From positions 858-64,857 of the forward strand of contig JAZDOT010000047.1 in the NCBI GenBank assembly GCA_043798355.1: a DNA stretch of 64,000 nt. Reading direction: 5' to 3'. Below, piece by piece: positions 39,443 to 50,183 of the stretch. Positions within the stretch are counted from its first letter, which is position 1. The number at the start of each line of letters is the position of its first letter. This stretch comes from Candidatus Peregrinibacteria bacterium. Its GTDB lineage: Bacteria; Patescibacteriota; Gracilibacteria; Peribacterales; Peribacteraceae. A program made the translations under genes and the position numbers. The notes beneath the pieces were generated by a model. It worked only from the letters and a program-made list of their open reading frames with translations. It ran no database searches and was not told the origin of the DNA.

Positions 39443-40807
39443 ATGCCCAAGAACACTTCCACCATCAAGCGGCTGAAGGGAAAGCGCTCCGTGTGCACCG
39501 TCACGATCGAGGATGCCCGTAAAAAGAACGCTGAATTGGCCGCGCTGAAGCACCTCGGCTCTTCGCTCAACCTGAAAGGCTTCCGTCCCGGGAAAATCCC
39601 GGAAAACCTGGTCGCGAGCCGGGTGAACCCGGATCAGCTCTTCGAAGAAACCGTCCGTTCCCTCCTCCCCGAAACCTTCCGGTCCCTCATCGAAGAGCAC
39701 GCACTCAACCCCATTCTCCCGCCCAAAGTCGAGATCACGTCCAAAGAACCCCTCACGCTCTCCGTCACCTTCGTCGAGAAACCCGATGTCACCGTGAAAG
39801 GATCGTTCACGATCAAGAAGAATGACCTCCCGTTGAAGGAGGAAGACGTGCGGAAGATGATCGACTTCATCCTCGAGAAGCACCAGACCGCGAAAGAAGT
39901 GGATCGTGCAGCGAAGGAAGGCGACCAAGTCACCATCGATTTCCGTGGATTCGATGACCAGGGGAAGCAAATCGAAGGAACGGAAACGACCGGACACGTC
40001 GTCGTCATCGGGAGCTCCTCGCTCATCCCCGGCTTCGAGGAAGCGCTCAAGGGCATGAAGAAGCGCGAACGGAAATCCTTCACGATCAACTTCCCGAAGC
40101 CCTACCACGCGGAAGCGCTGGCCGGGAAGCCGGTCACCTTCCACGTGACCATCGACAAGGTGGAAGAAATCTCAAAGCCGTCTCTCACGGATGCTTTCGC
40201 CCGCGAACACCTGGGTGTTTCCACAGCGGAGGAATTCCATAACCGCCTCAAGGAGCAAATGCGCCGCGAGCAGGATCACGCGGAGCGCAGTCGCCGCGAG
40301 CGCCTGCTCTTCGAACAAATCCGCACTGGAACGGTCGTCGACCTGCCGGAGGAGCTCATCGAAGAGGAACAGCGCGATCTCTTTGAGGATCTCAATCGAC
40401 GCATCGCCGGTGAGAACATGACGATGGAGGAATGGCTGAAGCAGATGAAGAAGAGCGTGGAAGATTTCCGGAAAGAACTGAACGAGCAGGCCAAGTCCCG
40501 CCTCACGCTCCGTCTCGGCATCCAGCAGCTCGTCCTTGACCGGAAGATCGAAGCGAGCGAAGAAGAAACCGAACAGGCGGCACAGGCGTTCTTACGTTCC
40601 CTTGATCCCGGCGAACGAAGCAAACAGGAAACGCACTACCAAAAAGGACACCAGGGGTGGGAGCAGATGCGCTGGCAGACGCAGGTCGGAAAGCTCATCG
40701 AACAGCTGCTCGCATCAAGCCTCCTCACTCGCCCCCCTTCCGTGACTTCTCCTGCAAATACGCGGGAAGCAGAAGCGGAGGAAGGAGACCTGGAATCTGC
40801 TCGATGA
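39443..40807 (+). CDS. tig: trigger factor
   Basis: LKGFRPGKIPENLV, an FKBP-like middle region (VTIDFRGF.D) and a helical C-terminal domain. Confidence 0.9.
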   Translation: MPKNTSTIKRLKGKRSVCTVTIEDARKKNAELAALKHLGSSLNLKGFRPGKIPENLVASRVNPDQLFEETVRSLLPETFRSLIEEHALNPILPPKVEITSKEPLTLSVTFVEKPDVTVKGSFTIKKNDLPLKEEDVRKMIDFILEKHQTAKEVDRAAKEGDQVTIDFRGFDDQGKQIEGTETTGHVVVIGSSSLIPGFEEALKGMKKRERKSFTINFPKPYHAEALAGKPVTFHVTIDKVEEISKPSLTDAFAREHLGVSTAEEFHNRLKEQMRREQDHAERSRRERLLFEQIRTGTVVDLPEELIEEEQRDLFEDLNRRIAGENMTMEEWLKQMKKSVEDFRKELNEQAKSRLTLRLGIQQLVLDRKIEASEEETEQAAQAFLRSLDPGERSKQETHYQKGHQGWEQMRWQTQVGKLIEQLLASSLLTRPPSVTSPANTREAEAEEGDLESAR

Positions 40808-43103
40808 GATCCAAATCATCCAACGATACCTTCCCAATGTACAACCGACGCAGGTCGCCGCCGCCGGACACAAACTGCTCGATCATCTGCTGGCCCCGGA
40901 GATACACCAATCCCTTGGTGAATCCGCCCGGGAGGCTGGTATCGGATAACCCCCGCTTGATATCGATCGCTTTGGTGAGCGCCTTCTCTGGAGAGTACCG
41001 GAGAACCTCCTCGAGGTACGTACGCGTCTCGGCGAAGGAATGTGTGAGACCGAACGCGATGCCCACGACGCTCCTCGCCGGCCCGAAGCGCTTCTCGTGT
41101 CCCGGAAGGAGCACGCGGTTCTGGTTGTACACCGCCAGCCCTTCCTGTGTTTCAAGATATGCTGCACACCCCCGCTGGAGGAGGAGGAAAGGCTGGTGCC
41201 GACCATTCTCCACGGTGAGCACGTGTGTTTCGATCTCGTGGGCAATGAGTGCCTCCATGCGCGTGCGCGTAAAAGAAGCTCCTTCCCGCAGAAAGACGGT
41301 ATTCTTCCCGGCTGCACAGTCGGACACCATCTTCGGCCGGACGACGACCTCCCAATCGCGAAGAGAATAGCGATCCAGAGCGGCGCGCAGCAGAGTCACG
41401 GCATCCGCGAGTGCGATGGGTTTTTCCGTGTTGACCCCATCCGCTCTCATCCCGGCAAGTGCGGCTTCCGCCGTGCGGATGAGGGCGGAGGTCGGCGCCC
41501 CGAAGAGTTCCTCGGATGCACGGGTGAACCTCACCGCATCTCCCCGCGCACGCAGGAGGACGATGCGCCTCAGCAGTTCCAGACGCTTCTTCTCGAGGAG
41601 CACCCCCAGAGGAGAATGATCAGTCACCCTCAGAGAGAGGCGGGACTCTGCCTCTTCGAGCGGGGAATCAAATGGAGGGTAGAGGAAATGAGGATGGTAG
41701 GAACGGTCGCTTCGCAGATGTTCCAATTCCCCGAGGAGATTCTCCGGCTTGAGCCAGCGAAGGGAGGAGAGGTCATCGTCGATCCGCGCGAGCAGGCGAT
41801 CCGCCGCCCGTCTGTCCATCCCGGAGCGTCTGCGTGGAAGAGGAGACGATGCCTGGCGTCCGGGGTCAAGGAGGAATCCAGTGAGATCGCGCTTGCCGAT
41901 CAACAGACGACCGGGCGCAGTGACCTGCCCCTCTGCAATGAGAGTCTGCACCTTGCGCCCGCCCAGCGTGAATTTGATCCGGTACGCTCCGCTCTTCTCC
42001 GTTTCGGGCTCAACGGCTCCTTTCTCCAACAACTCCGAGAGAAGACTCTGTTCGCATGTCGTCCTCTCCTGCCGCGGATCGATCACGGCCGGAACAGCGA
42101 ACTCGATGCCGGCTCCCGCAATGTGCACCGTTTCCATGAGCCCGAGCACGGGTCGCACGATTCCGGCCTTCTCCTGCAGTTTCTCGCCGAACAGATCCTG
42201 TCCGATCCGCACTCCTTTTTCCGGAAAGCGTACACGAATCCCCTTCACCCGTTCGAGACGCGACTGGAGGGGGGCGAGATTGGCGACCTGCACGCTGAGA
42301 CCCGCCCGCGCATTGACCTCGAGGAGAGCGGGGCCCATTTCGCGCGTGATGGTGATGTCGCAGGCGAGGTAGCCGATGTTGGTCATGTACTGGATGCGCG
42401 AGCACAAGAGGAGAATGTCATCCCAGAAAGGGATAGTGATCCCGGCAGGATCCGTCCCGTGCGGAAGTCGATCGATGGTGTGGTGGTACTGCGCCGCATG
42501 CGTCGTCACGCCCTTGGCAAGATCGATGCCGATGCCGATCCCCCCGAGGTGCAGGTTCGCCTTTCCGGAGCTCACGGAGGTCGGAATCCGCAGCATCGCC
42601 ATAATCGGGACGAGGTTGAAGACGATGACCCGGATGTCGGGGAGACCGTCCGGACGGAAGGGGGCGAAACAGGGGTGCGCTGTGAGCAGTTGCTCGAAGA
42701 ACGCCGTATCGCGCCGCCCGCCGATGGAGTACCGCCCTTCGAAGATGTCTTCGATATGGCGCGTGAGATCGCGCTCCGTGAGGATGCCGCGCCCCTTCGA
42801 AGAGAACGACCCGTCGTTCCGATGGAGCAGGAGAATCCCCTCGCCACCGTAGCCGCTGTTCGGCTTCAGGACACAGTCGGAAGGCAACGAGGAAAAATCG
42901 AACTGGCGAAGCTGTCCGCGCGTAGCGATGCGCGCATAGATCTTCGCAGTCGGGATCCCGCGTGCGGCGAGGAACATCTTCGTCTGCAGCTTATCGTCGG
43001 CGAACGCAACCGCTTTCCGTGGATTGAACGGGCGGATGTAGAGGAGATTGCGGGCATTGATGCCCAGCAGTCCGTTGCCGAGGATGCGTAGAAGATTGAT
43101 CAT
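40725..43103 (-). CDS. fusion protein: RimK-related ATP-grasp ligase (alpha-L-glutamate ligase-like) N-terminal half plus DUF1704/QEGLA-motif (MATCAP-like) zinc peptidase C-terminal half
   Basis: MINLLRILGNGLLGINARNLLYIRPFN...VLKPNSGYGGEGI in the N-terminal half. AHEIETH (HExxH) and ETQEGLAVYNQ in the C-terminal half. The start overlaps the upstream stop (ATGA). Confidence 0.8.
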   Translation of the reverse strand: MINLLRILGNGLLGINARNLLYIRPFNPRKAVAFADDKLQTKMFLAARGIPTAKIYARIATRGQLRQFDFSSLPSDCVLKPNSGYGGEGILLLHRNDGSFSSKGRGILTERDLTRHIEDIFEGRYSIGGRRDTAFFEQLLTAHPCFAPFRPDGLPDIRVIVFNLVPIMAMLRIPTSVSSGKANLHLGGIGIGIDLAKGVTTHAAQYHHTIDRLPHGTDPAGITIPFWDDILLLCSRIQYMTNIGYLACDITITREMGPALLEVNARAGLSVQVANLAPLQSRLERVKGIRVRFPEKGVRIGQDLFGEKLQEKAGIVRPVLGLMETVHIAGAGIEFAVPAVIDPRQERTTCEQSLLSELLEKGAVEPETEKSGAYRIKFTLGGRKVQTLIAEGQVTAPGRLLIGKRDLTGFLLDPGRQASSPLPRRRSGMDRRAADRLLARIDDDLSSLRWLKPENLLGELEHLRSDRSYHPHFLYPPFDSPLEEAESRLSLRVTDHSPLGVLLEKKRLELLRRIVLLRARGDAVRFTRASEELFGAPTSALIRTAEAALAGMRADGVNTEKPIALADAVTLLRAALDRYSLRDWEVVVRPKMVSDCAAGKNTVFLREGASFTRTRMEALIAHEIETHVLTVENGRHQPFLLLQRGCAAYLETQEGLAVYNQNRVLLPGHEKRFGPARSVVGIAFGLTHSFAETRTYLEEVLRYSPEKALTKAIDIKRGLSDTSLPGGFTKGLVYLRGQQMIEQFVSGGGDLRRLYIGKVSLDDLDLIEQIPGLLPPLLLPAYLQEKSRKGGE

Positions 43104-44614
43104 TCCTCCTGGAGATGTCCGAGGACTTCGCGGAAGCGGAAGTACTCGACGAGTCGGAGTCCCGACCAGCGTCCCAGCGCGATGTTCACGAAGATCGTTG
43201 CGAGGATGAGCTCAGGGTACGCGAGGATGAAGGACTGGAGGAGCGGCCACTGGACGACGGCGACGCAGAGGAGCGAAGCGAGGATGGTCTGGGCCGTCCC
43301 GGCGACGGCGCTGCGCCAGCCTTCCTCGGCCTTGAGACTGAGGAAGCTCTCCGTGAGCGTCGACATGATGAGGAGAATGAAGATGGTATCCCGCTCGTAC
43401 GTAACGCCGAACGCTGCGGAAGCAGAGAGGAGGAGGAGCAGGGTGATACTGACCGCGCAGATGACGATCGCCATGCGCGGCACGTGGAGGAGCCGGAAGT
43501 GCGCAACGAGCGCGCGCGTCGTGTAGCCGGCGAAGAGGATGATCAGAAGGAACATGACGCCCACCTGCCATCCCAGCGCGAGGAAGCTCAGGGTCACGAT
43601 GGACGGGGTGAAGAGGCCGAACGTCGTCAATCCGATCACCTGCCGGAGGAATGCGAGGATCGTCGCGATGATGGGAAGGATCAGGAGCAAAATGACGGTC
43701 TGGCTGGAAACGCCGTGCGTCAGCATGTAGTTCACGAGCGAGGACAACACGTTCCATGGACGGATGGCGACGGCGGACGCGTCGATCACACGAACATCGA
43801 TGTCGCGCTTCGAAAGTTCCTCCAGGAATGCGGGGATGTCCTTCTCTGTTAAGAGCGGATTGATGGACTCTTTGCGCGTCAGCACGATGCTGTCCGGCTT
43901 GAGCACCGCGAAGGGGCCGCCCGCCGTCCGCGCGAGGACGGCGAGACTGCGGCTGGTGATCACGATGATGTACTGTTTCTCGAGAAAGGGTATGCCGCTC
44001 GTGTCGGCCGCGTTCATGAGCGCCTGGAGACCGGATGCGGGATCGTCTGTCCAGAGCACAACCGCTTGCGCTCCGGCGACGGCATCAATATTTGCGCCGA
44101 TAACGGTGGCGAGCGGTTCAGAGGCGGATCCGTCTTTCTCGGCGGGACGCAGCACGAGAAGGTAGACGCCCGCCTCCTTCGCCTGTTCCTGATGGAGAGC
44201 AATCTTCTCCTCCGTCACATCGGACGTATCGGCAATCAGGACAATCTTCCGCTCGAACACCACAACTGTATGCTGCTTCTCCACCTCGTACTCCTGACCA
44301 GAGATGGTGGTGCGGATGACGAGTCGGAAGACGATGGTGCCCGGCTTCTCGGGCGTGTAGACCGCCTCCACCGTATCGCTCGCGCGCGCGGAGCGGTCAC
44401 GATACCACCGGTACGTCGTGTTCTCGCCCAGCCCCTGCGTCTGTGATGCATCCAGAACGATCGTCCGTCCGACGACGATGTTGTCGGGACCCGTGATGAC
44501 CGCAGTGACGGGGCCGGATGTTCCGGAGGGTTCCTGAGGTTCGCTGGACTGTGCGAATACGGGAGAGAAACCGATGCAGACCAGCAAAGAGAGGACGAGG
44601 AAGGCGTTCTTCAT
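43100..44614 (-). CDS. exported domain plus C-terminal polytopic module of the '7TM fused to inactive transglutaminase' type
   Basis: Trimmed to MKNAFLVLSLLVCIGFSPVFA. It has a PKD-like beta region, then about seven hydrophobic helices ending ...GRWSGLRLVEYFRFREV. Confidence 0.7.
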   Translation of the reverse strand: MKNAFLVLSLLVCIGFSPVFAQSSEPQEPSGTSGPVTAVITGPDNIVVGRTIVLDASQTQGLGENTTYRWYRDRSARASDTVEAVYTPEKPGTIVFRLVIRTTISGQEYEVEKQHTVVVFERKIVLIADTSDVTEEKIALHQEQAKEAGVYLLVLRPAEKDGSASEPLATVIGANIDAVAGAQAVVLWTDDPASGLQALMNAADTSGIPFLEKQYIIVITSRSLAVLARTAGGPFAVLKPDSIVLTRKESINPLLTEKDIPAFLEELSKRDIDVRVIDASAVAIRPWNVLSSLVNYMLTHGVSSQTVILLLILPIIATILAFLRQVIGLTTFGLFTPSIVTLSFLALGWQVGVMFLLIILFAGYTTRALVAHFRLLHVPRMAIVICAVSITLLLLLSASAAFGVTYERDTIFILLIMSTLTESFLSLKAEEGWRSAVAGTAQTILASLLCVAVVQWPLLQSFILAYPELILATIFVNIALGRWSGLRLVEYFRFREVLGHLQEE

Positions 44615-44751
44615 AGGCATGCAGTATAGCGCCCCGTGCGCGTCACGCACGTACGTCGGAGATCTTTGTGGAATGAAAACGTTGGCTCAGAAAAGGCAAT
44701 CTGACTGAAACGCTTGTCTCCCTTATGGAAAGTAATTAGGCTTCCTCTACG

Positions 44752-45717
44752 ATGAAATTAATCGCTGTGTTCTTCAATGAGCCAAACTTCCTCGATGATC
44801 CTTTCGACGAGGAAGAGTACCGGATCGCCTACCGGCAGATTGGGGAGCTCTTCGAAACGCGGGGCGGACGTTTCGCCATCGTCCGAAGTCCCGAGTCCTA
44901 CCGCGGCGGGAATACGTTCAAGGGGGGGTGGATCTTCCGGGATGGCGAATTCCAGAGGACTGAGGACATCCTCACGCCCGCCGTCATCTTCAACCGCGGA
45001 TCGTTCCTCGGCGATGGCAAGGCCGTCGTAGTCAATGACCCGGAACTGGAAACGCTTTGCACTGACAAAGCACAAACGTACGCACTCTTCCCCCACCTGT
45101 TCCCTCTCACGAAAACAGTCCACACCAAAGAGGAAGCAACGGCCTTTCTCCGCTTGATCCCGACCGCGATGGCTGTTGCCAAACCCATCGACGAAGAGGC
45201 GGGGCGGGGCGTGTTCATCCTCCCCAAGAAACAAATCCTGAAAGCGATTCCATCGTACCCATACCTGCTGCAGGAATTCATCGACACGTCCGCGGGCATC
45301 CCCGGCATCACGGAGGCGATCCACGACTTCCGCATCATCGGTATACGCGGCAAGCCTGTTGTCGCATACGTCCGCATGGCGAAACCCGGAAGTTACCTCG
45401 CGAACGTCGCCCGGGGGGCGACGATGCGGGAGGTGCCGCTCCCAACTGTCCCGCCCGAACCCATGCGCATCTTCGAGGAAGTGGATGCCGCTCTTCAGCG
45501 CTTTCCCGACCGCCTGTACTCCGTGGATACCGGCCGGGACAGAAGCGGCGTCTGGAAAATCATCGAGCTCAATACCAAACCGGGGACGTCCGTCATGGAG
45601 CAGGACCCCGGCACCCGCCGCTACCTCACGGGCATCGTCGAACTGCTCCTGTCGGTTGCGGAGAAATCGCCGTACAGCCATGAGCCCTTAGCTATCAGCC
45701 ATCAGTCTTCATCATAA
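44752..45717 (+). CDS. ATP-grasp family protein (YheC/YheD / RimK-like)
   Basis: AVAKPIDEEAGRGVFI...LLQEFID...DFRIIGIRGKPV.AYVR...ANVARGA...IELNTKPG. The C-terminal tail is encoded by heptamer repeats. Confidence 0.75.
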   Translation: MKLIAVFFNEPNFLDDPFDEEEYRIAYRQIGELFETRGGRFAIVRSPESYRGGNTFKGGWIFRDGEFQRTEDILTPAVIFNRGSFLGDGKAVVVNDPELETLCTDKAQTYALFPHLFPLTKTVHTKEEATAFLRLIPTAMAVAKPIDEEAGRGVFILPKKQILKAIPSYPYLLQEFIDTSAGIPGITEAIHDFRIIGIRGKPVVAYVRMAKPGSYLANVARGATMREVPLPTVPPEPMRIFEEVDAALQRFPDRLYSVDTGRDRSGVWKIIELNTKPGTSVMEQDPGTRRYLTGIVELLLSVAEKSPYSHEPLAISHQSSS

Positions 45718-45743
45718 GACGACCACCGCAAATGATTGCTAAA

Positions 45744-45762
45744 GGCTCATGGCTCATGGCTA
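45744..45762. repeat. heptamer tandem repeat (GGCTCAT)x2.7
   Basis: ggctcatggctcatggcta. The preceding stretch 45677..45717 (cagccat gagccct tagctat cagccat cagtctt) also has a 7-nt period. Confidence 0.85.
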
Positions 45763-45766
45763 ACAA

Positions 45767-47674
45767 TTACACTTTCACTCCTGTCAGCCATCGCGCCTTC
45801 ACTCTCCGTTCGGGGTTCGCGAGCGAGAGCAGCTTACACTTTTCGCGGTGGAGAATCACTTCCCCGGAGCGGCTGACGACGCCGATGATCTTCTCCCGCT
45901 TGCCCTCGGAGGGCTTGCAGCACTTCGCGTAGCGGATGGGCATCGGGAGCCCGCTCTCGATCTCCACGAGCGCATCTTTCCGCTGTCTGCGGTGCAGAGG
46001 GGAGGACGAGGCGGCATCGGAAAAATCCACCTTCTTGAGCGCTCTGAGATGGGACAGAACCACCGTGACTTTCTCCGCCTCCTGCCCGATCTTCATGAGG
46101 AGATCTTCCCGCTTCACGAGAGGCAGCACCGTCTGATCAAAGAACCGGAAAACGGAGAGATCCGTATCGAGGGGCGGAAGGTGATGCTTCGCGAGTTCCG
46201 CATTCGTAATTTCCTTGCCGCGTACGATGAATTCATCCCGGCGCTCGGCATAGAGGTGCCGCTTCAGCTTGGAACGGGAAGACGCCATGTGGAGGAGCTG
46301 CATCCACTGCGGGGAGGGACGGGGCGAGCTGAACTTCTGCACCTCGACGACATCGCCGTTCTCGAGCGTGTGATCGAGGGGAACGATAGAGCCATTCACT
46401 TTGGCGGACTTGAACGCGAGTCCGAGATCGGTATGGACCTGGAACGCGAAATCGAGCGGCGTGGCTCCTTCGGGCAGTTCGATGATTTCCCCCTTCGGCG
46501 TGAGGACGAAGATGTGATCCGCGAAAACCGGCTGACCTGAACCGGCGGCAACCTCCTCCTGCGAAGAGAGCATGGCATGGAGCTGCGCGTGCTCCATGGC
46601 TGCGCGCGTCGCACCGTGCTCCTTGTAGCTCCAGTGCGCGGCGATACCGTACTTGGCTTCGCGGTGCATCGTCTCAGAACGGATCTGCACCTCAATGAAC
46701 GTGTCCTGAGGTGCTGCGGGGAGCTGCGCGAGCGTGGTATGGAGACTCTGGTAGCCGTTCGGCTTCGGGAAGGCGATGTAGTCCTTGAAGCGGTTCGCGA
46801 CGGGGCGGCCGACCTGGTGCAGAACACCCAGCACCCGGTAGCACTCCTCGGCCGTCGGAACGATGAGGCGGATAGCGAAGAGATCCCTGACATCTTCCAC
46901 GTGCGTGATGCTCTTCGCGCACATCTTCCGGAAGATGCTGTAGGTCTCCTTCTCGCGGTACTCCATGGAAGCTTGCATCCCCTGCTCGCCGATCGTGCGC
47001 ACCAGTTCCCGCGCCGTCCGTTCGAGGAACCCTCCTTTTTTCTCCCGCACCTGTGCGAGTTGTTCCTGGATGCGCTCCGCATCGGAAGGGTAGCAGATGG
47101 GGAATGCCTTACGTTCGAGACAGTGCTTGAGCGCGTAGATACCGAGGCGCGCCGCCACGGGGGCAAAGAGGTTGAGGACGTCACTGGCGACCCTCCTCGC
47201 CTCCTCACCGGTCTTCTCTGAGAACTGATCCAGGAGCCGACAGCGGTCGCAGAGCGTGATGAGGATGACATGCAGATCGTCGGAGACGCTGAGAAGCATC
47301 AGACGCAGATCTTCGATGGAGTTCCGGCGGCTCTTCAGCGTCACATTGGAAAGGAGGTGGACCTCGCCCACGATGGAACGCACCTTCGGCCCGAACTGCT
47401 CCGCGATGTCGACGAGGGTCATCCCGTTTTTCGTGCGGAGCGCGTGGTGCAACAGAGCCGCGATGATGGCGTCTTCGTCCGGCTGGAACGGGAGAAGGAT
47501 CTCAAAAACCCCCAGCACATGTTCGAGGATGGATCCTCCGGCCCAGTGTTCCCCCTTGCCGACAAGCTCCTGCGCAATGCTGAATGCACGCATAACGCGG
47601 TCCGAATCGAAACCTTTCTTTTCAGCTTCGATGCGCTTGATGGCAGCCGTGAATTCGGCAGTAGTCATAGACAT
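45767..47674 (-). CDS. relA: bifunctional (p)ppGpp synthetase/hydrolase, RelA/SpoT homologue
   Basis: HD domain (HWAGGSILEHVLGV...ALLHH), synthetase domain (FKDYIAFPKPNGYQSLHT), then TGS and ACT-like C-terminal domains. A GTG at 47680 is an alternative start. Confidence 0.93.
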   Translation of the reverse strand: MSMTTAEFTAAIKRIEAEKKGFDSDRVMRAFSIAQELVGKGEHWAGGSILEHVLGVFEILLPFQPDEDAIIAALLHHALRTKNGMTLVDIAEQFGPKVRSIVGEVHLLSNVTLKSRRNSIEDLRLMLLSVSDDLHVILITLCDRCRLLDQFSEKTGEEARRVASDVLNLFAPVAARLGIYALKHCLERKAFPICYPSDAERIQEQLAQVREKKGGFLERTARELVRTIGEQGMQASMEYREKETYSIFRKMCAKSITHVEDVRDLFAIRLIVPTAEECYRVLGVLHQVGRPVANRFKDYIAFPKPNGYQSLHTTLAQLPAAPQDTFIEVQIRSETMHREAKYGIAAHWSYKEHGATRAAMEHAQLHAMLSSQEEVAAGSGQPVFADHIFVLTPKGEIIELPEGATPLDFAFQVHTDLGLAFKSAKVNGSIVPLDHTLENGDVVEVQKFSSPRPSPQWMQLLHMASSRSKLKRHLYAERRDEFIVRGKEITNAELAKHHLPPLDTDLSVFRFFDQTVLPLVKREDLLMKIGQEAEKVTVVLSHLRALKKVDFSDAASSSPLHRRQRKDALVEIESGLPMPIRYAKCCKPSEGKREKIIGVVSRSGEVILHREKCKLLSLANPERRVKARWLTGVKV

Positions 47675-47701: not shown

Positions 47702-48154
47702 CTACTCCGCTTTCCTCTCCAATTCCAGTGTCACCGGCCCATCGTTGATCAAGGAAACCTCCATCTCTGCGCCAAAAACCCCCGCTTCCACTTTTTTGAT
47801 CCCGCTCGACTTCAAGAGAGAAATGAATGTCTCATAGAGCTTCTCGGCATCCACCGGAGGAGCAGCCAGCGTGTAGTCCGGCCGGTTGCCGTTTGCAATG
47901 TCCGCTGCGAGCGTGAATTGGGAAATAACCAGGACCTCGCCGCCGATATCGAGAATGCTCCAATCGTTGACCTTGCCGCTGTCACTATCGAATAATCTGA
48001 GTTTCGATACTTTCTCCGCTAACCATTTCGCTTCAATTTCGGAATCCCCTTTCATGACTCCGAGAAAGAGAAGATACCCTTGAGCGATTGCCCCGACGGT
48101 TTTTCCGTCGACGTTCACCTGAGCCTGAAGAACACGCTGGAGGAGGAGACGCAT
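47702..48154 (-). CDS. dtd: D-aminoacyl-tRNA deacylase
   Basis: MRLLLQRV..A.V.VDGK.VG.I.QG.L.FLGV...D...A.WLA.K...LR.F... ISQFTL. Confidence 0.92.
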   Translation of the reverse strand: MRLLLQRVLQAQVNVDGKTVGAIAQGYLLFLGVMKGDSEIEAKWLAEKVSKLRLFDSDSGKVNDWSILDIGGEVLVISQFTLAADIANGNRPDYTLAAPPVDAEKLYETFISLLKSSGIKKVEAGVFGAEMEVSLINDGPVTLELERKAE

Positions 48155-48241
48155 TTGGAAACTATTGTAACGGAAACGACCGTCACGATCCCAAGAATGG
48201 AAAAAGATATTGACCTCTATCTTTATAATAAATGCTAAGAT

Positions 48242-48829
48242 ATGTTCAATATGAGATTTGTCTTGGCTCTGATAGCAGTCCTATTAATCGGGATAGATGC
48301 AATAGTGGTGATAAAATTAATTGAGTCGCACATTAAGAAATCCGATAATGTTCATGTTTGGTTTCAAATGTTCTCAATGCTAATCGCAGTATCGGCAATA
48401 TTTTTCCCAATGTACCAAAACCACAAACAGGACATGTGCAAGTATAGAACCGAACTAACAACAAAAATTGTTGAACTTACAACGGAACTATCCTATGCAA
48501 TTCGTATTGATATGGGGATTCCATATATTTGCTACATTCCTGATGACAGGGGAGATCTAAAAAACGTCCCCGAAAGGGAATATCAGATATATACAAAATT
48601 TCGCTTGAACGCCCAACTCGTTAAGCACTATATGAATTCAATGAATCATTCGAAAGAGACAGCAGATGCATTCAATTCTTTCATAAATAATATCAAGAAG
48701 CTTGAGAGTAAATGTGGAAAAAAAGATGCTAACTTCCACGAGACTTGGCGTGACGTCGATGAATCCGGAGATGCTTTTCTTACCAGAATTTCTAGATATT
48801 CTAGTGAATGCTTCGAGTCGTTTTTTTAA
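48242..48829 (+). CDS. orphan membrane protein in a strongly AT-rich island
   Basis: 195 aa with two N-terminal TM helices. Its Lys/Asn/Ile-rich composition is unlike the rest of the window. Confidence 0.6.
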   Translation: MFNMRFVLALIAVLLIGIDAIVVIKLIESHIKKSDNVHVWFQMFSMLIAVSAIFFPMYQNHKQDMCKYRTELTTKIVELTTELSYAIRIDMGIPYICYIPDDRGDLKNVPEREYQIYTKFRLNAQLVKHYMNSMNHSKETADAFNSFINNIKKLESKCGKKDANFHETWRDVDESGDAFLTRISRYSSECFESFF

Positions 48830-48936
48830 AAAAATCAGGAAGCAATATCTGTTGCTTTGTGAAATGAAACACCTACAATTTGACATTCACCTCTCTTATT
48901 TTCTTATCTCTCACACAAAAGAAGTGTTCAGAATTG

Positions 48937-48964
48937 TTGACGCAGCCGCTCTTGTCAGTAGAAT
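48937..48964 (+). promoter_or_regulatory. sigma70-type promoter TTGACG-16-TAGAAT
   Basis: ttgacg cagccgctcttgtcag tagaat, about 230 nt upstream of rplJ. Confidence 0.6.
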
Positions 48965-49112
48965 AGCCACTGTCCGAAGACCGAGGGCATTAGGCTGATG
49001 GCCGAAGGTAAGTCCCTCCGAGGCATACAGCAGCGGTTACATGGCTCCGGCTAAGTGATTCGTGCCGTGTGCCTCGCTGGTCTCCCGGACAAACTGAAGG
49101 GAGACCTTTTTT
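48965..49112 (+). promoter_or_regulatory. structured 5' leader of rplJ-rplL (L10-leader-like attenuator) ending in an intrinsic terminator
   Basis: It lies between the promoter and rplJ. The terminator GGTCTCCC-ggacaaactgaa-GGGAGACC-TTTTTT is at 49079..49112. Confidence 0.5.
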
Positions 49113-49160
49113 ATACCATATGTCCCCCTAACCCTTCGGCGCTTAGCGCCTCAGGGCAAG

Positions 49161-49191
49161 CCCTAATCCTAACCCTATCCCTAACCCTACC
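49161..49191. repeat. telomere-like hexamer repeat (CCCTAA/CCTAAT variants) abutting the rplJ start codon
   Basis: ccctaatcctaaccctatccctaaccctacc, followed directly by ATG. Confidence 0.9.
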
Positions 49192-49728
49192 ATGGCTGTC
49201 ACCCGCCAACAGAAGAAAGAGCAACTCGCCGTCCTCAAGGATAAGCTCAAGAAGTCACAGTCCGTCATGTTCGCGCACTTCATCGGCATGAACGTCCTCG
49301 ATACCAGTGAACTGCGACGCAAGCTGAAGGAGAAGGACGCCGAGATGAAGGTCGCGAAGAAGACCCTCATGCAGATCGCCGCCAAAGAGACGGGATTGCC
49401 GGAAGTGCCTGAATCCTCCCTCACGGGACCGATCTCCTGCATCTTCAGTTACACGGACCCCCTCTCCGGCGCGCAGGTCGCCTTCACATTCGGAAAAGCG
49501 CACGCGCAGGTGAAACTCCTCGGCGGGATTTTTGACGGCCGCGTCCTTTCGAAGGAAGAGGCGCTGGAGATGGCCATGATGCCGGGCCGCGAAGTGCTGC
49601 TCGCGACCTTCGCGTCCATGATCCGCGCCCCTCTCTATCAGTTTGCCGGCATGTGCGCCTCCCCGCTCACCGGTTTCGCCCGCGCCCTGTCCGAGCTTGC
49701 TAAGAAACAACCCGCCCTCCAAGCGTAG
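49192..49728 (+). CDS. rplJ: 50S ribosomal protein L10
   Basis: 178 aa: [35 protein letters not shown]...ELRRKLKE. Followed by rplL. Confidence 0.93.
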
Positions 49729-49729
49729 T

Positions 49730-49760
49730 AATTATCAATTATCAATTCTTCATTCTCTTC
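49730..49760. repeat. dispersed element starting with (AATTATC)x2.5, copy 2
   Basis: aattatcaattatcaattcttcattctcttc starts 1 nt after the rplJ stop. Confidence 0.85.
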
Positions 49761-49772
49761 CCCCCCTCCCTC

Positions 49773-50183
49773 ATGGCTGACGAAGCAGCAACCATCACCC
49801 TCTCCGCGAAAGAGAAAGCCGTCATCGATGCACTCGAGAAGCTCAACGTCATCGAGCTCAATACCGTCGTGAAGTACATGGAGAAGACGTACGGTATCTC
49901 CGCTGCCGCTCCGGTTGCGATCGCCGCCGCTCCCGCCGCAGGAGGGGGAGCAGCAGCCGAGGCCGATGAGAAGAGCGCCTATAACCTGGAGCTCACGGAC
50001 TCCGGCGCCCAGAAGATCGCCGTCATCAAGGTCGTCCGCGAGATCACCGGTCTCCCGCTGGGCGAGGCCAAGGCCGCCGTCGACGGCGCCCCGAAGGTGC
50101 TCAAGGAAGGCGTCCCCAAGGCCGAGGCGGAAGAGATGAAGAAGAAGCTGGAGGCCGCCGGTGCGAAGGTCACACTGAAATAA
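49773..50183 (+). CDS. rplL: 50S ribosomal protein L7/L12
   Basis: ...[56 protein letters not shown]. Confidence 0.96.

What the first reader, a model, noticed from the sequence alone, without database searches (positions are those of the whole stretch)
40725..45717. Candidate uncharacterised ligation/trimming system: 7TM protein + ATP-grasp::DUF1704(MATCAP-like) fusion + second ATP-grasp
Three genes make up the candidate system.
- Gene 43100..44614(-) has a signal peptide, an extracytoplasmic beta region and a C-terminal ~7TM module of the type usually fused to an inactive transglutaminase.
- That gene overlaps by ATGA the start of 40725..43103(-), a single polypeptide joining two domains. 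One is a RimK-related alpha-L-glutamate-ligase-like ATP-grasp domain. The other is a DUF1704/QEGLA-motif zincin domain (HEIETH, ETQEGLAVY).
- A YheC/D-RimK-like ATP-grasp gene (44752..45717) is divergent.
To my knowledge, the three families co-occur as separate genes in proteobacterial cassettes predicted only by comparative genomics, with no known substrate. The eukaryotic DUF1704 homologue MATCAP removes the C-terminal tyrosine of tubulin, and the opposing enzyme (tubulin tyrosine ligase) is an ATP-grasp. A covalent ligase-carboxypeptidase fusion therefore suggests a reversible C-terminal amino-acid addition/removal cycle on an unknown peptide or protein, possibly coupled to the membrane partner.
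Basis: partly seen in the sequence, partly recalled or inferred. Interest (0 to 1): 0.8.

Follow-up and report, generated by a model that had tools for sequence, protein, structure and literature searches.

The report
Membrane-coupled peptide-tail ligase and trimmer operon
A candidate-phylum bacterium carries a conserved two-gene operon in which one protein joins an amino-acid ligase, a dead protease domain and a tubulin-type tail-trimming peptidase, next to a membrane protein whose invariant -Glu-Glu end is a plausible target of both.

Summary
The three ORFs, their domains and the ATGA overlap are real. The fusion is not an artefact: hundreds of Peribacteria/Peregrinibacteria assemblies encode it full-length, with the 7TM gene directly upstream in 77 of 80 loci.

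The "linker" (aa ~318-412) is a RimB/RloA-type retropepsin fold that has lost its D-T-G catalytic motif. The operon is therefore a compacted variant of the Rlo/Rim ligase-peptidase systems (P. aeruginosa rloABC; RimK-RimB). A MATCAP-type HExxxH metallocarboxypeptidase appears to have replaced the aspartic peptidase, and the ectodomain is PKD plus an alpha/beta domain, not an inactive transglutaminase.

New lead: the 7TM partner ends in Glu in 84 of 86 MATCAP-containing systems (mostly -EE) and in 0 of 54 MATCAP-less systems. Codon usage and gene spacing exclude a ribosome-binding-site artefact. The tail is cytoplasmic, so it is a candidate acceptor/substrate, like S6 -EE for RimK or tubulin -EE(Y) for TTL/MATCAP. 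This is inference. MATCAP systems form roughly one clade, so the statistics overstate independence.

The second ATP-grasp is not a core component. It is linked in only 3 loci and usually lies elsewhere.

Verdict: new variant of a known kind; interest 0.68.

The parts
43100..44614 (-). Gene 1: membrane partner, 504 aa. It comprises a signal peptide, a PKD domain, a 5-stranded alpha/beta ectodomain, a 7TM_transglut module and a cytoplasmic C-terminal helix ending ...HLQEE.
   Evidence: PF14402 E 4.7e-27. AF2 model pLDDT 79. PKD match TM 0.8 to ColG PKD. Seven hydrophobic segments. 436 homologues, full-length conserved.
44255..44503 (-). PKD (Ig-like beta-sandwich) ectodomain, aa ~38-120 of the 7TM protein.
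   Evidence: Foldseek hits 2y72/4tn9/4jrw, prob 1.0, rmsd 2.1-2.4 A. Distant partners carry Pfam PKD/PKD_4.
43775..44251 (-). Alpha/beta ectodomain, aa ~122-280. It occupies the place where RloB has its inactive transglutaminase domain.
   Evidence: AF2 secondary structure is beta-alpha repeats, pLDDT 77-95. No PF14400 hit. No strong structural match.
43163..43705 (-). Seven-transmembrane module, aa ~304-484.
   Evidence: PF14402, AF2 helices, hydropathy.
43103..43162 (-). Cytoplasmic C-terminal tail, GLRLVEYFRFREVLGHLQEE-COOH. The terminal Glu-Glu codons are at 43103-43108. This is the candidate acceptor or recognition tail.
   Evidence: Terminal Glu in 77/77 Peribacteria partners, -EE in 70. 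Synonymous codon variation, and the tail is retained with gaps of 26-435 nt. Terminal Glu in 84/86 MATCAP systems versus 0/54 MATCAP-less systems.
40725..43103 (-). Gene 2: tri-domain cytoplasmic enzyme, 792 aa. Its start overlaps the stop of gene 1 (ATGA).
   Evidence: It is 100% identical to an NCBI MAG protein. Full-length homologues occur in 80/80 best genome loci.
42234..43076 (-). RloC-type ATP-grasp ligase domain (PF14397), aa ~10-290. Key residues are K38, K80, G87, D156, R158, R172, N183, D249, E262, N264 and G268. It has no pre-ATP-grasp N-domain.
   Evidence: Pfam E 2.5e-58. Alignment to E. coli RimK: invariant columns K100, K141, G148, D187, R189, R203, N213, D248, E260, N262, G266. 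The residues are invariant in the family.
41868..42152 (-). Degenerate RimB/RloA-type retropepsin-like domain, aa ~318-412. D342-P343-R344 (nt 42072-42080) occupies the position of the catalytic D-T-G. The C-terminal IGKRDLxGFLLDP motif is retained.
   Evidence: AF2 beta domain, pLDDT 74-87. Foldseek hits to Ddi1 RVP domains, prob 1.0. Relatives score above threshold for PF05618 and carry AK[IVL]DTGA. D[TS]G is present in 0/80 Peribacteria loci.
40746..41816 (-). MATCAP/TMCP-type metallocarboxypeptidase domain, aa ~430-786. HEIETH is at aa 622-627 (nt 41223-41240) and TQEG at aa 652-655 (nt 41139-41150).
   Evidence: PF08014 E 3.5e-42. PDB 7z5g profile E 2.7e-13. Foldseek E 4e-11, TM 0.73. pLDDT >85. 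HExxxH in 80/80 loci.
44752..45717 (+). GR2: stand-alone GshB/RimK-like ATP-grasp, divergent from the operon. It is a facultative neighbour, not a core component.
   Evidence: Catalytic columns are conserved. Only 60 homologues found. It is adjacent to the operon only in the window, L002 and L100. Elsewhere it forms tandem ATP-grasp pairs beside Peptidase_M23.

Best explanation
This is a compact variant of the Rlo/Rim family of ATP-grasp ligase plus peptidase systems, found in candidate-phyla-radiation bacteria (Peribacterales).

Shown here:
- It is a translationally coupled two-gene operon.
- Gene 1 encodes a membrane protein with an extracytoplasmic PKD domain, an alpha/beta domain and an RloB-type 7TM module. 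Its C-terminus is cytoplasmic and ends in -Glu-Glu.
- Gene 2 encodes a cytoplasmic tri-domain enzyme. The first domain is an RloC/RimK-related ATP-grasp with all ATP/Mg ligands intact. The second is a RimB/RloA-type retropepsin domain that has lost its catalytic Asp-Thr-Gly. The third is a MATCAP/TMCP-type HExxxH metallocarboxypeptidase with its metal ligands intact.

Inferred mechanism:
- The ATP-grasp adds amino acids, most likely alpha-linked glutamate, to a C-terminal carboxylate.
- The best candidate acceptor is the partner's own -EE tail, analogous to the S6 -EE tail used by RimK.
- The dead retropepsin domain serves as a dimerising, acidic-tail-binding or ligase-activating scaffold. RimB is known to bind and stimulate RimK.
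- The MATCAP domain trims added residues one at a time from the C-terminus and so sets tail length.
- The ectodomain and 7TM module couple this cytoplasmic write/erase cycle to an envelope signal or transport function, by analogy with the role of rloABC in hypo-osmotic tolerance and cell shape.

The second ATP-grasp (GR2) is an occasional accessory at most.
For: - Domain calls.
- Fusion conserved: 1902 hits, the best 120 all two-domain and full-length; 177 confirmed genome matches, of which the best 80 were kept and all 80 are full-length.
- The 7TM gene is directly upstream in 77/80 Peribacteria loci, in distant fusions and in 52/54 MATCAP-less relatives.
- ATP-grasp catalytic columns align with E. 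coli RimK.
- MATCAP: HExxxH plus (Q/E)EG align to 7z5g; fold match TM 0.73; motif present in 80/80 loci.
- Middle domain: retropepsin fold by Foldseek. Relatives exceed the PF05618 gathering score and carry DTGA. DTG is present in 0/80 Peribacteria loci. DTG and MATCAP are anti-associated, 4/56 versus 26/16, Fisher p 1.4e-9.
- Natural split forms break at the aa 420-429 linker.
- Tail: terminal Glu in 77/77. The constraint is on the protein, not an RBS effect. The tail is cytoplasmic. It is present in distant MATCAP systems L097, L098, L099, L100, L085 and L182. It is absent from 54 MATCAP-less partners and 2 proteobacterial RloB proteins.
- Precedents: RimB trims polyGlu, binds RimK and stimulates it 4-fold, and a RimBK hybrid exists (PMC11957791). 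RloA cleaves stretches of 8 or more Glu, and rloB/rloC deletions suppress the rloA1-3 mutant (PMC12239564). TMCP1/2 are deglutamylases that need a penultimate Glu (PMC10499314).
Against: - No biochemical data exist for any member. The amino acid added and the acceptor are unknown.
- The ATP-grasp scores below NCBIfam's equivalog cut-off for TIGR02291 (242 versus 314 bits). It also lacks the N-terminal acceptor-binding domain of RimK.
- The -EE tail is not universal among MATCAP systems: L087 ends ...PNH and L181 ends ...RHD.
- MATCAP-containing ligases form essentially one large clade plus one small group. The tail/MATCAP co-variation therefore rests on few independent events.
- In Pseudomonas the peptidase is periplasmic, which argues that the Rlo product crosses the membrane. 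That favours an export model over tail modification.
- The fusion model has pTM 0.52, and its ATP-grasp part is of mediocre confidence.
- No complex could be modelled.
Confidence: 0.6

Rival explanations
1. Free-polymer/export model. The ATP-grasp makes free poly-alpha-glutamate or another short anionic peptide. The 7TM protein exports or anchors it at the envelope. The MATCAP domain only degrades cytoplasmic excess. The -EE tail is a docking or pseudo-substrate element that tethers or regulates the enzyme rather than being extended.
For: - RimK with RimB makes free poly-alpha-Glu of up to 28-36 residues (PMC11957791).
- In P. aeruginosa the peptidase RloA is secreted, while RloC is cytoplasmic and RloB is the only membrane component. 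Deleting rloB or rloC suppresses the loss of RloA (PMC12239564). This implies that a product reaches the periplasm.
- MATCAP-less relatives keep the same 7TM partner without an acidic tail, so the 7TM protein has a role independent of such a tail.
Against: - In this clade all peptidase-type domains are cytoplasmic and fused to the ligase.
- The model does not explain why the terminal residue is invariant Glu at the protein level specifically where MATCAP is present.
- No transporter-like fold was found for the 7TM module beyond a weak TMEM175 hit.
Confidence: 0.25
2. A single non-acidic residue such as Tyr or Phe is reversibly added to and removed from a C-terminal -EE, as on alpha-tubulin.
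For: - The partner tail ends -EE, like detyrosinated alpha-tubulin.
- MATCAP removes Tyr after a required penultimate Glu (PMC10499314).
- NCBI names the domain tyrosine/phenylalanine carboxypeptidase.
- A few relatives give faint PF03133 TTL hits.
Against: - The ligase belongs to the RimK/RloC lineage, not TTL. The window protein has no TTL hit at E <= 0.01.
- The ancestral partner peptidase family (RimB/RloA) is polyGlu-specific (PMC11957791, PMC12239564).
- TMCPs also deglutamylate (PMC10499314).
- The encoded tails vary in Glu number (-EE, -EEE, -EEEE), as expected for a Glu-extension system.
Confidence: 0.12
3. Three-gene system. The second ATP-grasp (GR2, 44752..45717) is an obligatory third component, for example an initiating ligase working with an elongating one.
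For: - GR2 keeps all catalytic columns.
- A GR2 homologue (31% identity, E 1e-46) overlaps the fusion's stop codon in L100.
- GR2 is divergent-adjacent in the window and in L002.
- GshB-like ATP-grasps also pair with QEGLA/MATCAP-like genes in rhizobia and apparently in Photobacterium.
Against: - GR2 is absent from the flanks of 79 of 80 Peribacteria loci.
- Only 60 homologues were found, against more than 1900 for the fusion.
- In genomes that have both, GR2 lies elsewhere as a tandem ATP-grasp pair beside Peptidase_M23.
- GR2 is only 26% identical over 157 aa to the rhizobial GshB-like partner.
Confidence: 0.08
4. The fusion is an assembly or frameshift artefact that joins two separate genes.
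For: Natural split forms exist in other lineages: proteins of ~430 aa covering aa 10-417 and proteins of ~360 aa covering aa 429-786.
Against: - Uninterrupted full-length ORFs occur in all 80 best-matching loci, from many independent projects and assemblies, and in the best 120 protein clusters, at 51-67% identity.
- Conservation runs continuously across the junctions.
Confidence: 0.01

Closest known systems
rloABC operon of Pseudomonas aeruginosa (Lormand et al. 2025, PMC12239564)
   Same: - The same ATP-grasp family (PF14397/TIGR02291 type) is paired in an operon with a PF14402 7TM membrane protein and a PF05618 retropepsin-type module.
- Stop/start overlaps link the genes.
- I verified the canonical cassette in Legionella and Aeromonas.
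   Different: - Here the retropepsin module is fused to the ligase, is cytoplasmic and has lost D-T-G. RloA is a separate, secreted, active protease.
- The ectodomain is PKD plus an alpha/beta domain, not an inactive transglutaminase (PF14400 absent).
- A MATCAP metallocarboxypeptidase domain is added.
- The partner ends in -EE, whereas the two proteobacterial RloB tails examined are not acidic.
- The host is a candidate-phyla-radiation bacterium.
RimK-RimB and the RimBK hybrid (Little et al. 2025, PMC11957791)
   Same: - An ATP-grasp glutamate ligase is opposed by a dedicated peptidase.
- The retropepsin module binds the ligase.
- There is a precedent for covalent ligase-peptidase fusion.
- RimK's acceptor, ribosomal protein S6, ends in -EE (established knowledge, e.g. 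Kang et al. 1989 as cited in PMC12239564; not shown in the sections read here).
   Different: - The ATP-grasp subfamily differs: TIGR00768 scores 33 bits against a cut-off of 143, and there is no pre-ATP-grasp domain.
- The domain order is ligase then retropepsin, the reverse of RimBK.
- The retropepsin domain is inactive.
- Hydrolysis is presumably by an exo-acting metallopeptidase.
- The system has a membrane partner, which Rim lacks.
Eukaryotic tubulin tail enzymes: TTL/TTLL ligases versus MATCAP/TMCP1-2 (PMC10499314; PDB 7z5g)
   Same: - The peptidase fold and the HExxxH plus (E/Q)EG metal site are homologous.
- An ATP-grasp writer opposes this eraser.
- The substrate logic is an acidic C-terminal tail ending -EE(X).
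   Different: - Writer and eraser are in one polypeptide.
- The ligase is RimK/RloC-like, not TTL-like.
- There is no microtubule-binding region.
- The proposed target is a membrane protein.
- Sequence identity to the human MATCAP catalytic domain is only 20-22%.
Rhizobial FGase - QEGLA (632 aa) - GshB-like ATP-grasp operon (L081, L082)
   Same: A MATCAP-like peptidase is genetically paired with an ATP-grasp ligase.
   Different: - The ligase is a separate gene of GshB type with its N-terminal domain.
- There is no 7TM partner.
- An N-formylglutamate-amidohydrolase-like gene is present.
- The QEGLA protein has an unannotated 275-aa N-terminal region.

Membership tests
Rlo system (rloABC) | RloC-type ATP-grasp (PF14397 / TIGR02291) | tested here: met
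   PF14397 scores 197.9 bits against a cut-off of 31.4. TIGR02291 gives E 5.5e-72, but 242 bits is below the equivalog cut-off of 314. It is a family member, not an equivalog.
Rlo system (rloABC) | Adjacent, co-oriented 7TM_transglut (PF14402) membrane protein | tested here: met
   PF14402 scores 95.5 bits against a cut-off of 25. ATGA overlap. Conserved in 77/80 loci.
Rlo system (rloABC) | Inactive transglutaminase ectodomain (PF14400) on the 7TM protein | tested here: not met
   There is no PF14400 hit. The NCBIfam RloB model matches only the C-terminal half. The AF2 model shows PKD plus an alpha/beta domain. Aeromonas and Legionella RloB do hit PF14400.
Rlo system (rloABC) | Separate, secreted, catalytically active retropepsin-like peptidase (RloA; catalytic Asp in D-T/S-G) | tested here: not met
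   The fold is present but fused and cytoplasmic. The position of D-T-G reads D-P-R. D[TS]G is present in 0/80 clade members.
Rlo system (rloABC) | Role in hypo-osmotic tolerance; suppression genetics | not testable with these tools
   This requires genetics, and the organism is uncultured.
MATCAP/TMCP (PF08014, DUF1704) | Profile match above the curated threshold | tested here: met
   145.1 bits against a cut-off of 27. TIGR02421 gives E 1.8e-45 but is below its equivalog cut-off.
MATCAP/TMCP (PF08014, DUF1704) | HExxxH motif plus a third metal ligand in the (E/Q)EG motif | tested here: met
   H622, E623, H627 and E654 are invariant. They align to human HEIGTH/TEEGLA. The motif definition comes from PMC10499314.
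MATCAP/TMCP (PF08014, DUF1704) | Fold similarity to solved MATCAP | tested here: met
   Foldseek against 7z5g: E 4e-11, TM(target) 0.70-0.73. Model pLDDT is above 85 in this domain.
MATCAP/TMCP (PF08014, DUF1704) | Metallocarboxypeptidase activity on acidic C-terminal tails | not testable with these tools
   This requires an enzyme assay.
RimK proper / RimBK hybrid | RimK-family ATP-grasp with the N-terminal pre-ATP-grasp domain | tested here: not met
   TIGR00768 scores 33 bits against a cut-off of 143. The alignment shows that the protein begins at about RimK residue 85.
RimK proper / RimBK hybrid | Conserved ATP/Mg2+ catalytic residues of ATP-grasp ligases | tested here: met
   RimK columns K100, K141, G148, D187, R189, R203, N213, D248, E260, N262 and G266 are invariant. 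They correspond to window residues K38, K80, G87, D156, R158, R172, N183, D249, E262, N264 and G268.
RimK proper / RimBK hybrid | Glutamylation of ribosomal protein S6 | not tested
   S6 of this organism was not located or examined.
TTL/TTLL (PF03133) | Profile match to the tubulin-tyrosine ligase family | tested here: not met
   The window protein has no PF03133 hit at E <= 0.01. Two relatives give only faint hits.

The most novel reading that the evidence does not exclude
The 7TM partner's genetically fixed cytoplasmic -Glu-Glu C-terminus is reversibly extended by the fused ATP-grasp and trimmed back by the fused MATCAP domain. This would be a bacterial tail code on a membrane sensor or transporter, with writer and eraser in one polypeptide. 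It would be a prokaryotic counterpart, and possibly an evolutionary source, of the eukaryotic tubulin tyrosination/glutamylation cycle.
Probability: 0.35. Interest if true: 0.85.

Novelty: new variant of a known kind. Interest (0 to 1): 0.68.

Why it matters
- **A concrete candidate substrate.** The substrates of Rlo-type systems are unknown, even though rloB and rloC are reported to recur in antibiotic-susceptibility and virulence screens in Pseudomonas (PMC12239564). This variant offers a cheaply testable candidate: a 20-residue tail peptide ending -EE. It also places both opposing activities in one soluble protein that could be expressed.
- **A natural experiment in peptidase replacement.** An endo-acting aspartic peptidase appears to have been replaced by an exo-acting metallocarboxypeptidase, while the dead domain was kept. 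This points to a non-catalytic role for the RimB/RloA fold.
- **An evolutionary link to the tubulin code.** A MATCAP-type eraser is covalently joined to an ATP-grasp writer and opposite an -EE tail in bacteria. That is relevant to how the eukaryotic tubulin-tail enzymes arose.
- **Relevance to small-genome bacteria.** The operon is widespread in Peribacterales (177 confirmed matches among species-representative genomes) despite their small genomes. This suggests an important envelope-related function in this poorly understood group.

Tried and rejected
- **Shine-Dalgarno artefact for the -QEE end.** CAGGAGGAA precedes the next start codon. Rejected because the terminal codons vary synonymously (GAA 43/GAG 21; GAA 38/GAG 19), the commonest ending CAAGAAGAA is not SD-like, and 27 loci with gaps of 26-435 nt keep the tail.
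- **GR2 as a core component.** Rejected, but kept as a sporadic accessory after L100.
- **Direct sequence detection of the middle domain.** Pfam on the single sequence and on 22 members, and a PDB profile search, gave nothing significant. Identification came from fold search and from intermediate relatives.
- **PDB sequence search for the ATP-grasp.** Only marginal PurK hits. An explicit alignment to E. coli RimK was used instead.
- **Synteny of the window's flanks.** Trigger factor, RelA/SpoT, Dtd and SecF were not found next to the operon in any of 80 loci.
- **Promoter/terminator scan of 40400-45900.** Uninformative: 0 promoter-like sites, and terminator-like sites below the shuffled expectation.
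- **Taxonomy of distant representatives.** The sources carry no names.
- **Iyer et al. 2009 (PMC3268129).** It could not be read, so its predictions are not cited.
- **Proteobacterial three-family cassette including DUF1704.** Not seen in Legionella or Aeromonas. Plasmid-borne gammaproteobacterial QEGLA genes were singletons.
- **First tree attempt.** It failed on over-strict motif anchors and was redone with HMM envelopes.
- **RVP-domain regex.** It matched nothing and was ignored.


Full report
**1. Observation**

All three ORFs exist as described. The upstream ORF can be read from a GTG at 44650. The ATG at 44614 gives a classical signal peptide and is the start used in the public annotation (504 aa, 100% match). 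The stop of this gene and the start of the next overlap as ATGA.

Domain calls are strong:
- The 792-aa protein hits PF14397 ATPgrasp_ST (aa 18-287, 2.5e-58) and PF08014 MATCAP (aa 464-770, 3.5e-42).
- The upstream protein hits PF14402 7TM_transglut (4.7e-27).
- The divergent 321-aa protein gives weak RimK/GSH-S ATP-grasp hits.
- The motifs HEIETH and TQEGLA align with HEIGTH and TEEGLA of human MATCAP.

One correction: the motif is H-E-x-x-x-H, the family norm described for TMCP1/MATCAP together with an "EEG" third ligand (PMC10499314).

**2. The fusion is real and lineage-wide**

A search of 5.8 billion proteins gave 1902 hits at E <= 1e-10. The best 120 are all 780-840 aa, carry both Pfam domains and cover 93-100% of the query at 55-67% identity. 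The named ones are Candidatus Peregrinibacteria/Peribacteria. The window itself is a 73.9-kb NCBI MAG contig.

In one-genome-per-species contigs, 177 stretches were confirmed. The best 80 were kept, and all 80 are full-length fusions in Peribacteria-type MAGs. An assembly or frameshift artefact is excluded.

**3. What is conserved around it**

In those 80 loci the 7TM gene lies immediately upstream on the same strand in 77. The other three have the fusion at or near a contig end. None of the window's other neighbours (trigger factor, RelA/SpoT, Dtd, SecF) is syntenic. The second ATP-grasp (GR2) is adjacent only in L002, the closest relative. Other recurrent neighbours are housekeeping genes: an HPF/RaiA-like gene, L25/Ctc, a GT2 and UvrC. 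The core is therefore a two-gene operon.

**4. A third, overlooked domain**

The AlphaFold model has mean pLDDT 74. The MATCAP half is above 85 and the ATP-grasp half is mediocre. It shows a compact beta domain at aa ~318-412 (pLDDT 74-87), followed by a disordered linker at aa 420-429.

After MATCAP itself (E 4e-11, TM 0.73), the next Foldseek hits are retroviral-protease-like domains of Ddi1 (prob 1.0, ~90 aligned columns). ATP-grasp ligases (BacD, PsnB, Ddl) also appear.

Direct profile searches of this segment found nothing. An exhaustive search of 1.84 billion cluster representatives gave 3425 hits, including:
- full fusions down to 28% identity;
- split forms of ~430 aa covering aa 10-417, and of ~360 aa covering aa 429-786.

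In several of these relatives the middle domain exceeds Pfam's gathering score (27 bits) for PF05618, the RimB/RloA family:

| Protein | PF05618 score (bits) |
|---|---|
| P0173 | 38.1 |
| P0175 | 34.7 |
| P0192 | 31.1 |
| P0196 | 29.7 |

Those relatives carry the canonical AK[IVL]DTGA motif. The window reads AVIDPRQ at that position, and the clade consensus is LI[A/S]P..ER. The C-terminal IGRRDLxGFL[IV]DP motif is kept.

Across the 80 loci, D[TS]G occurs in 0/80. HExxxH occurs in 80/80 and the ATP-grasp E-x-N motif in 78/80. Among representatives of at least 400 aa, MATCAP and DTG are anti-associated: 4/56 versus 26/16, Fisher p 1.4e-9, uncorrected for phylogeny. The simplest reading is that a metallocarboxypeptidase took over hydrolysis and the aspartic domain was retained for a non-catalytic role.

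**5. Catalytic competence of the ligase**

I aligned the domain with E. coli RimK (fetched), GR2, a rhizobial GshB-like protein and four relatives. The only columns invariant across all eight sequences, apart from the shared start Met, are RimK K100, K141, G148, D187, R189, R203, N213, D248, E260, N262 and G266. That these form the ATP/Mg-binding set of ATP-grasp enzymes is established knowledge, not tested here. They correspond to window K38, K80, G87, D156, R158, R172, N183, D249, E262, N264 and G268, all invariant in the family.

The domain lacks the pre-ATP-grasp N-domain of RimK/GshB. Acceptor binding must therefore come from elsewhere; this is inference.

**6. The membrane partner**

The AF2 model has pLDDT 79. 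It shows a signal peptide, a PKD domain (TM ~0.8, rmsd 2.1-2.4 A to collagenase PKD domains), a five-stranded alpha/beta domain with no strong match, seven TM helices and a C-terminal amphipathic helix. There is no transglutaminase-like domain: PF14400 is absent. Aeromonas and Legionella RloB proteins do hit PF14400 strongly.

Hydropathy gives seven segments after the signal peptide, so the Arg-rich tail should be cytoplasmic.

**7. Relation to known systems**

NCBIfam's RloB hit led to the P. aeruginosa rloABC study (PMC12239564). Its findings:
- RloA is a secreted retropepsin that cleaves stretches of 8 or more Glu.
- RloB is an inactive-transglutaminase 7TM protein.
- RloC is a cytoplasmic ATP-grasp.
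- Deleting rloB or rloC suppresses the hypo-osmotic lethality of the rloA1-3 triple mutant.
- The substrate is unknown.

I verified the canonical order PF05618 -> PF14400+PF14402 -> PF14397 in Legionella and Aeromonas. Neither contains a MATCAP gene.

The cytoplasmic paralogue system is RimK-RimB (PMC11957791). RimB removes Glu from polyglutamylated S6, binds RimK, raises its ATPase about 4-fold and is needed for poly-alpha-Glu synthesis. A RimB-RimK hybrid exists. TMCP1/2 (MATCAP family) shorten polyGlu chains and need a penultimate Glu.

The window's operon thus contains all three Rlo families, with RloA-like and RloC-like modules fused, plus MATCAP.

**8. A candidate substrate**

The partner ends ...HLQEE.

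*Within the Peribacteria clade.* All 77 Peribacteria partners end in Glu: 70 in -EE(E) and 7 in -QE.

*Excluding the ribosome-binding-site confounder.* CAG-GAG-GAA is Shine-Dalgarno-like, so I tested this directly. The last codon is GAA in 43 loci and GAG in 21. The penultimate codon is GAA 38, GAG 19 and CAG 7. In 27 loci the next gene starts 26-435 nt away and the tail is still kept. The constraint is on the protein.

*Distant MATCAP systems*:

| Locus | Fusion identity / type | Partner tail |
|---|---|---|
| L097 | 45% | ...TEE |
| L100 | 41% | ...QEE |
| L098 | 33% | ...IEE, with diverged preceding residues |
| L099 | DTG + MATCAP form | ...IEE |
| L182 | 28% clade | ...TEE |
| L085 | 36% | ...LTE |
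| L181 | small separate group | ...RHD |
| L087 | 28% | ...PNH |

*MATCAP-less systems.* A metagenome scan with MATCAP-less queries gave 80 loci. Of these, 54 have a partner with a complete C-terminus, and in 52 the partner is directly upstream. Fifty of the 54 ligases keep DTG. None of the partners ends in Glu; 26 end in Lys. The two proteobacterial RloB tails are also not acidic.

*Tally.* Terminal Glu occurs in 84/86 MATCAP systems and 0/54 MATCAP-less systems. Before the last two loci were added, Fisher p was 6e-38. Using only six distant systems it was 1e-6.

*Caveat.* A neighbour-joining tree of the ATP-grasp domain shows MATCAP-containing ligases as essentially one large block plus a small group (P0199, P0180, P0168). 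Independent events are therefore few, and these p-values overstate the evidence. What remains solid is clade-wide purifying selection on a terminal Glu across lineages as divergent as 33% identity, and its absence everywhere MATCAP is absent.

**9. Mechanism**

Shown:
- operon structure;
- three domains, with two active-site sets intact and one lost;
- topology;
- tail conservation.

Inferred:
- The ligase adds residues, most likely alpha-Glu given its lineage and the specificity of its peptidase partners, to a C-terminal carboxylate.
- The partner's -EE tail is the best candidate acceptor.
- MATCAP trims from the end.
- The dead retropepsin domain dimerises, binds acidic tails or activates the ligase.

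The main rival is free-polymer synthesis and export, with the tail acting as a docking element. The periplasmic location of RloA in Pseudomonas supports that rival.

**10. GR2**

GR2 has intact catalytic columns but only 60 homologues. In other Peribacteria genomes it forms tandem ATP-grasp pairs beside Peptidase_M23 genes, far from the operon. In L100, however, a GR2 homologue (31% identity, E 1e-46) overlaps the fusion's stop codon. In rhizobia, QEGLA genes pair with GshB-like ATP-grasps. GR2 is therefore an occasional accessory at most, not a defining part.

**11. Novelty**

The searchable literature has nothing on the fusion, on the TIGR/Pfam identifiers or on Peregrinibacteria ATP-grasps. 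The proteins are annotated in public databases, and the parent systems are known. I classify it as a new variant of a known kind, with a specific and testable substrate hypothesis.

Noticed in passing
window 40725-40807: The trigger-factor ORF (39443..40807, +) and the fusion ORF (40725..43103, -) overlap convergently by 83 nt. This is an unusually long tail-to-tail overlap. The trigger-factor C-terminal extension may be over-called.
   Followed up: no
window 48001-50000 (ORF 48242..48829, +): GC drops to 0.489 against about 0.58 elsewhere. The region holds a 195-aa low-GC ORF with an N-terminal hydrophobic helix, between dtd and rplJ. It may be a recent insertion.
   Followed up: no
L003:6095-6451 and 33 other loci; L087 and L181: An HPF/RaiA-like 118-aa gene lies directly upstream of the 7TM gene in 34 of 80 Peribacteria loci, and L25/Ctc is nearby in 49. 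In the small distant group the operon sits between rplK-A-J-L and mreB. This ribosome-related neighbourhood could be mere synteny, or relevant given RimK's ribosomal target.
   Followed up: partly
L091:7001-8880, L092:7001-8862, L093:7001-8838: GR2 homologues normally occur as tandem pairs of paralogous GshB/RimK-like ATP-grasp genes with overlapping stop/start, in two of the three loci (L092, L093) beside Peptidase_M23 genes. This may be a cell-wall peptide ligase pair.
   Followed up: partly
L081:5325-9096, L082:1482-9096: Rhizobial megaplasmids carry an operon of N-formylglutamate-amidohydrolase-like, QEGLA/MATCAP-like (632 aa, with an unannotated 275-aa N-terminal region) and GshB-like ATP-grasp genes. 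In Photobacterium damselae a QEGLA gene and an adjacent 'GshB' are induced 27-38-fold at low salinity (PMC10308900).
   Followed up: partly
P0173 (916 aa), P0148, P0158, P0163: A few three-domain relatives keep the retropepsin DTG together with MATCAP. P0173's MATCAP domain has an HEIVH (HExxH) variant of the metal motif. These may be intermediates in the peptidase replacement.
   Followed up: no
L010, L074: Contigs labelled Kiritimatiellales and Candidatus Gracilibacteria carry the Peribacteria-type operon at 54-57% identity. This is probably mis-binning or mislabelling in the source MAGs.
   Followed up: no
L101-L180 (7TM partners of MATCAP-less ligases): Partners of MATCAP-less, DTG-positive ligases are mostly bare 7TM proteins of ~216-240 aa. 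Their tails are basic: 26 of 54 end in Lys, and the mean net charge of the last six residues is +1.4. This opposite charge bias is unexplained.
   Followed up: no
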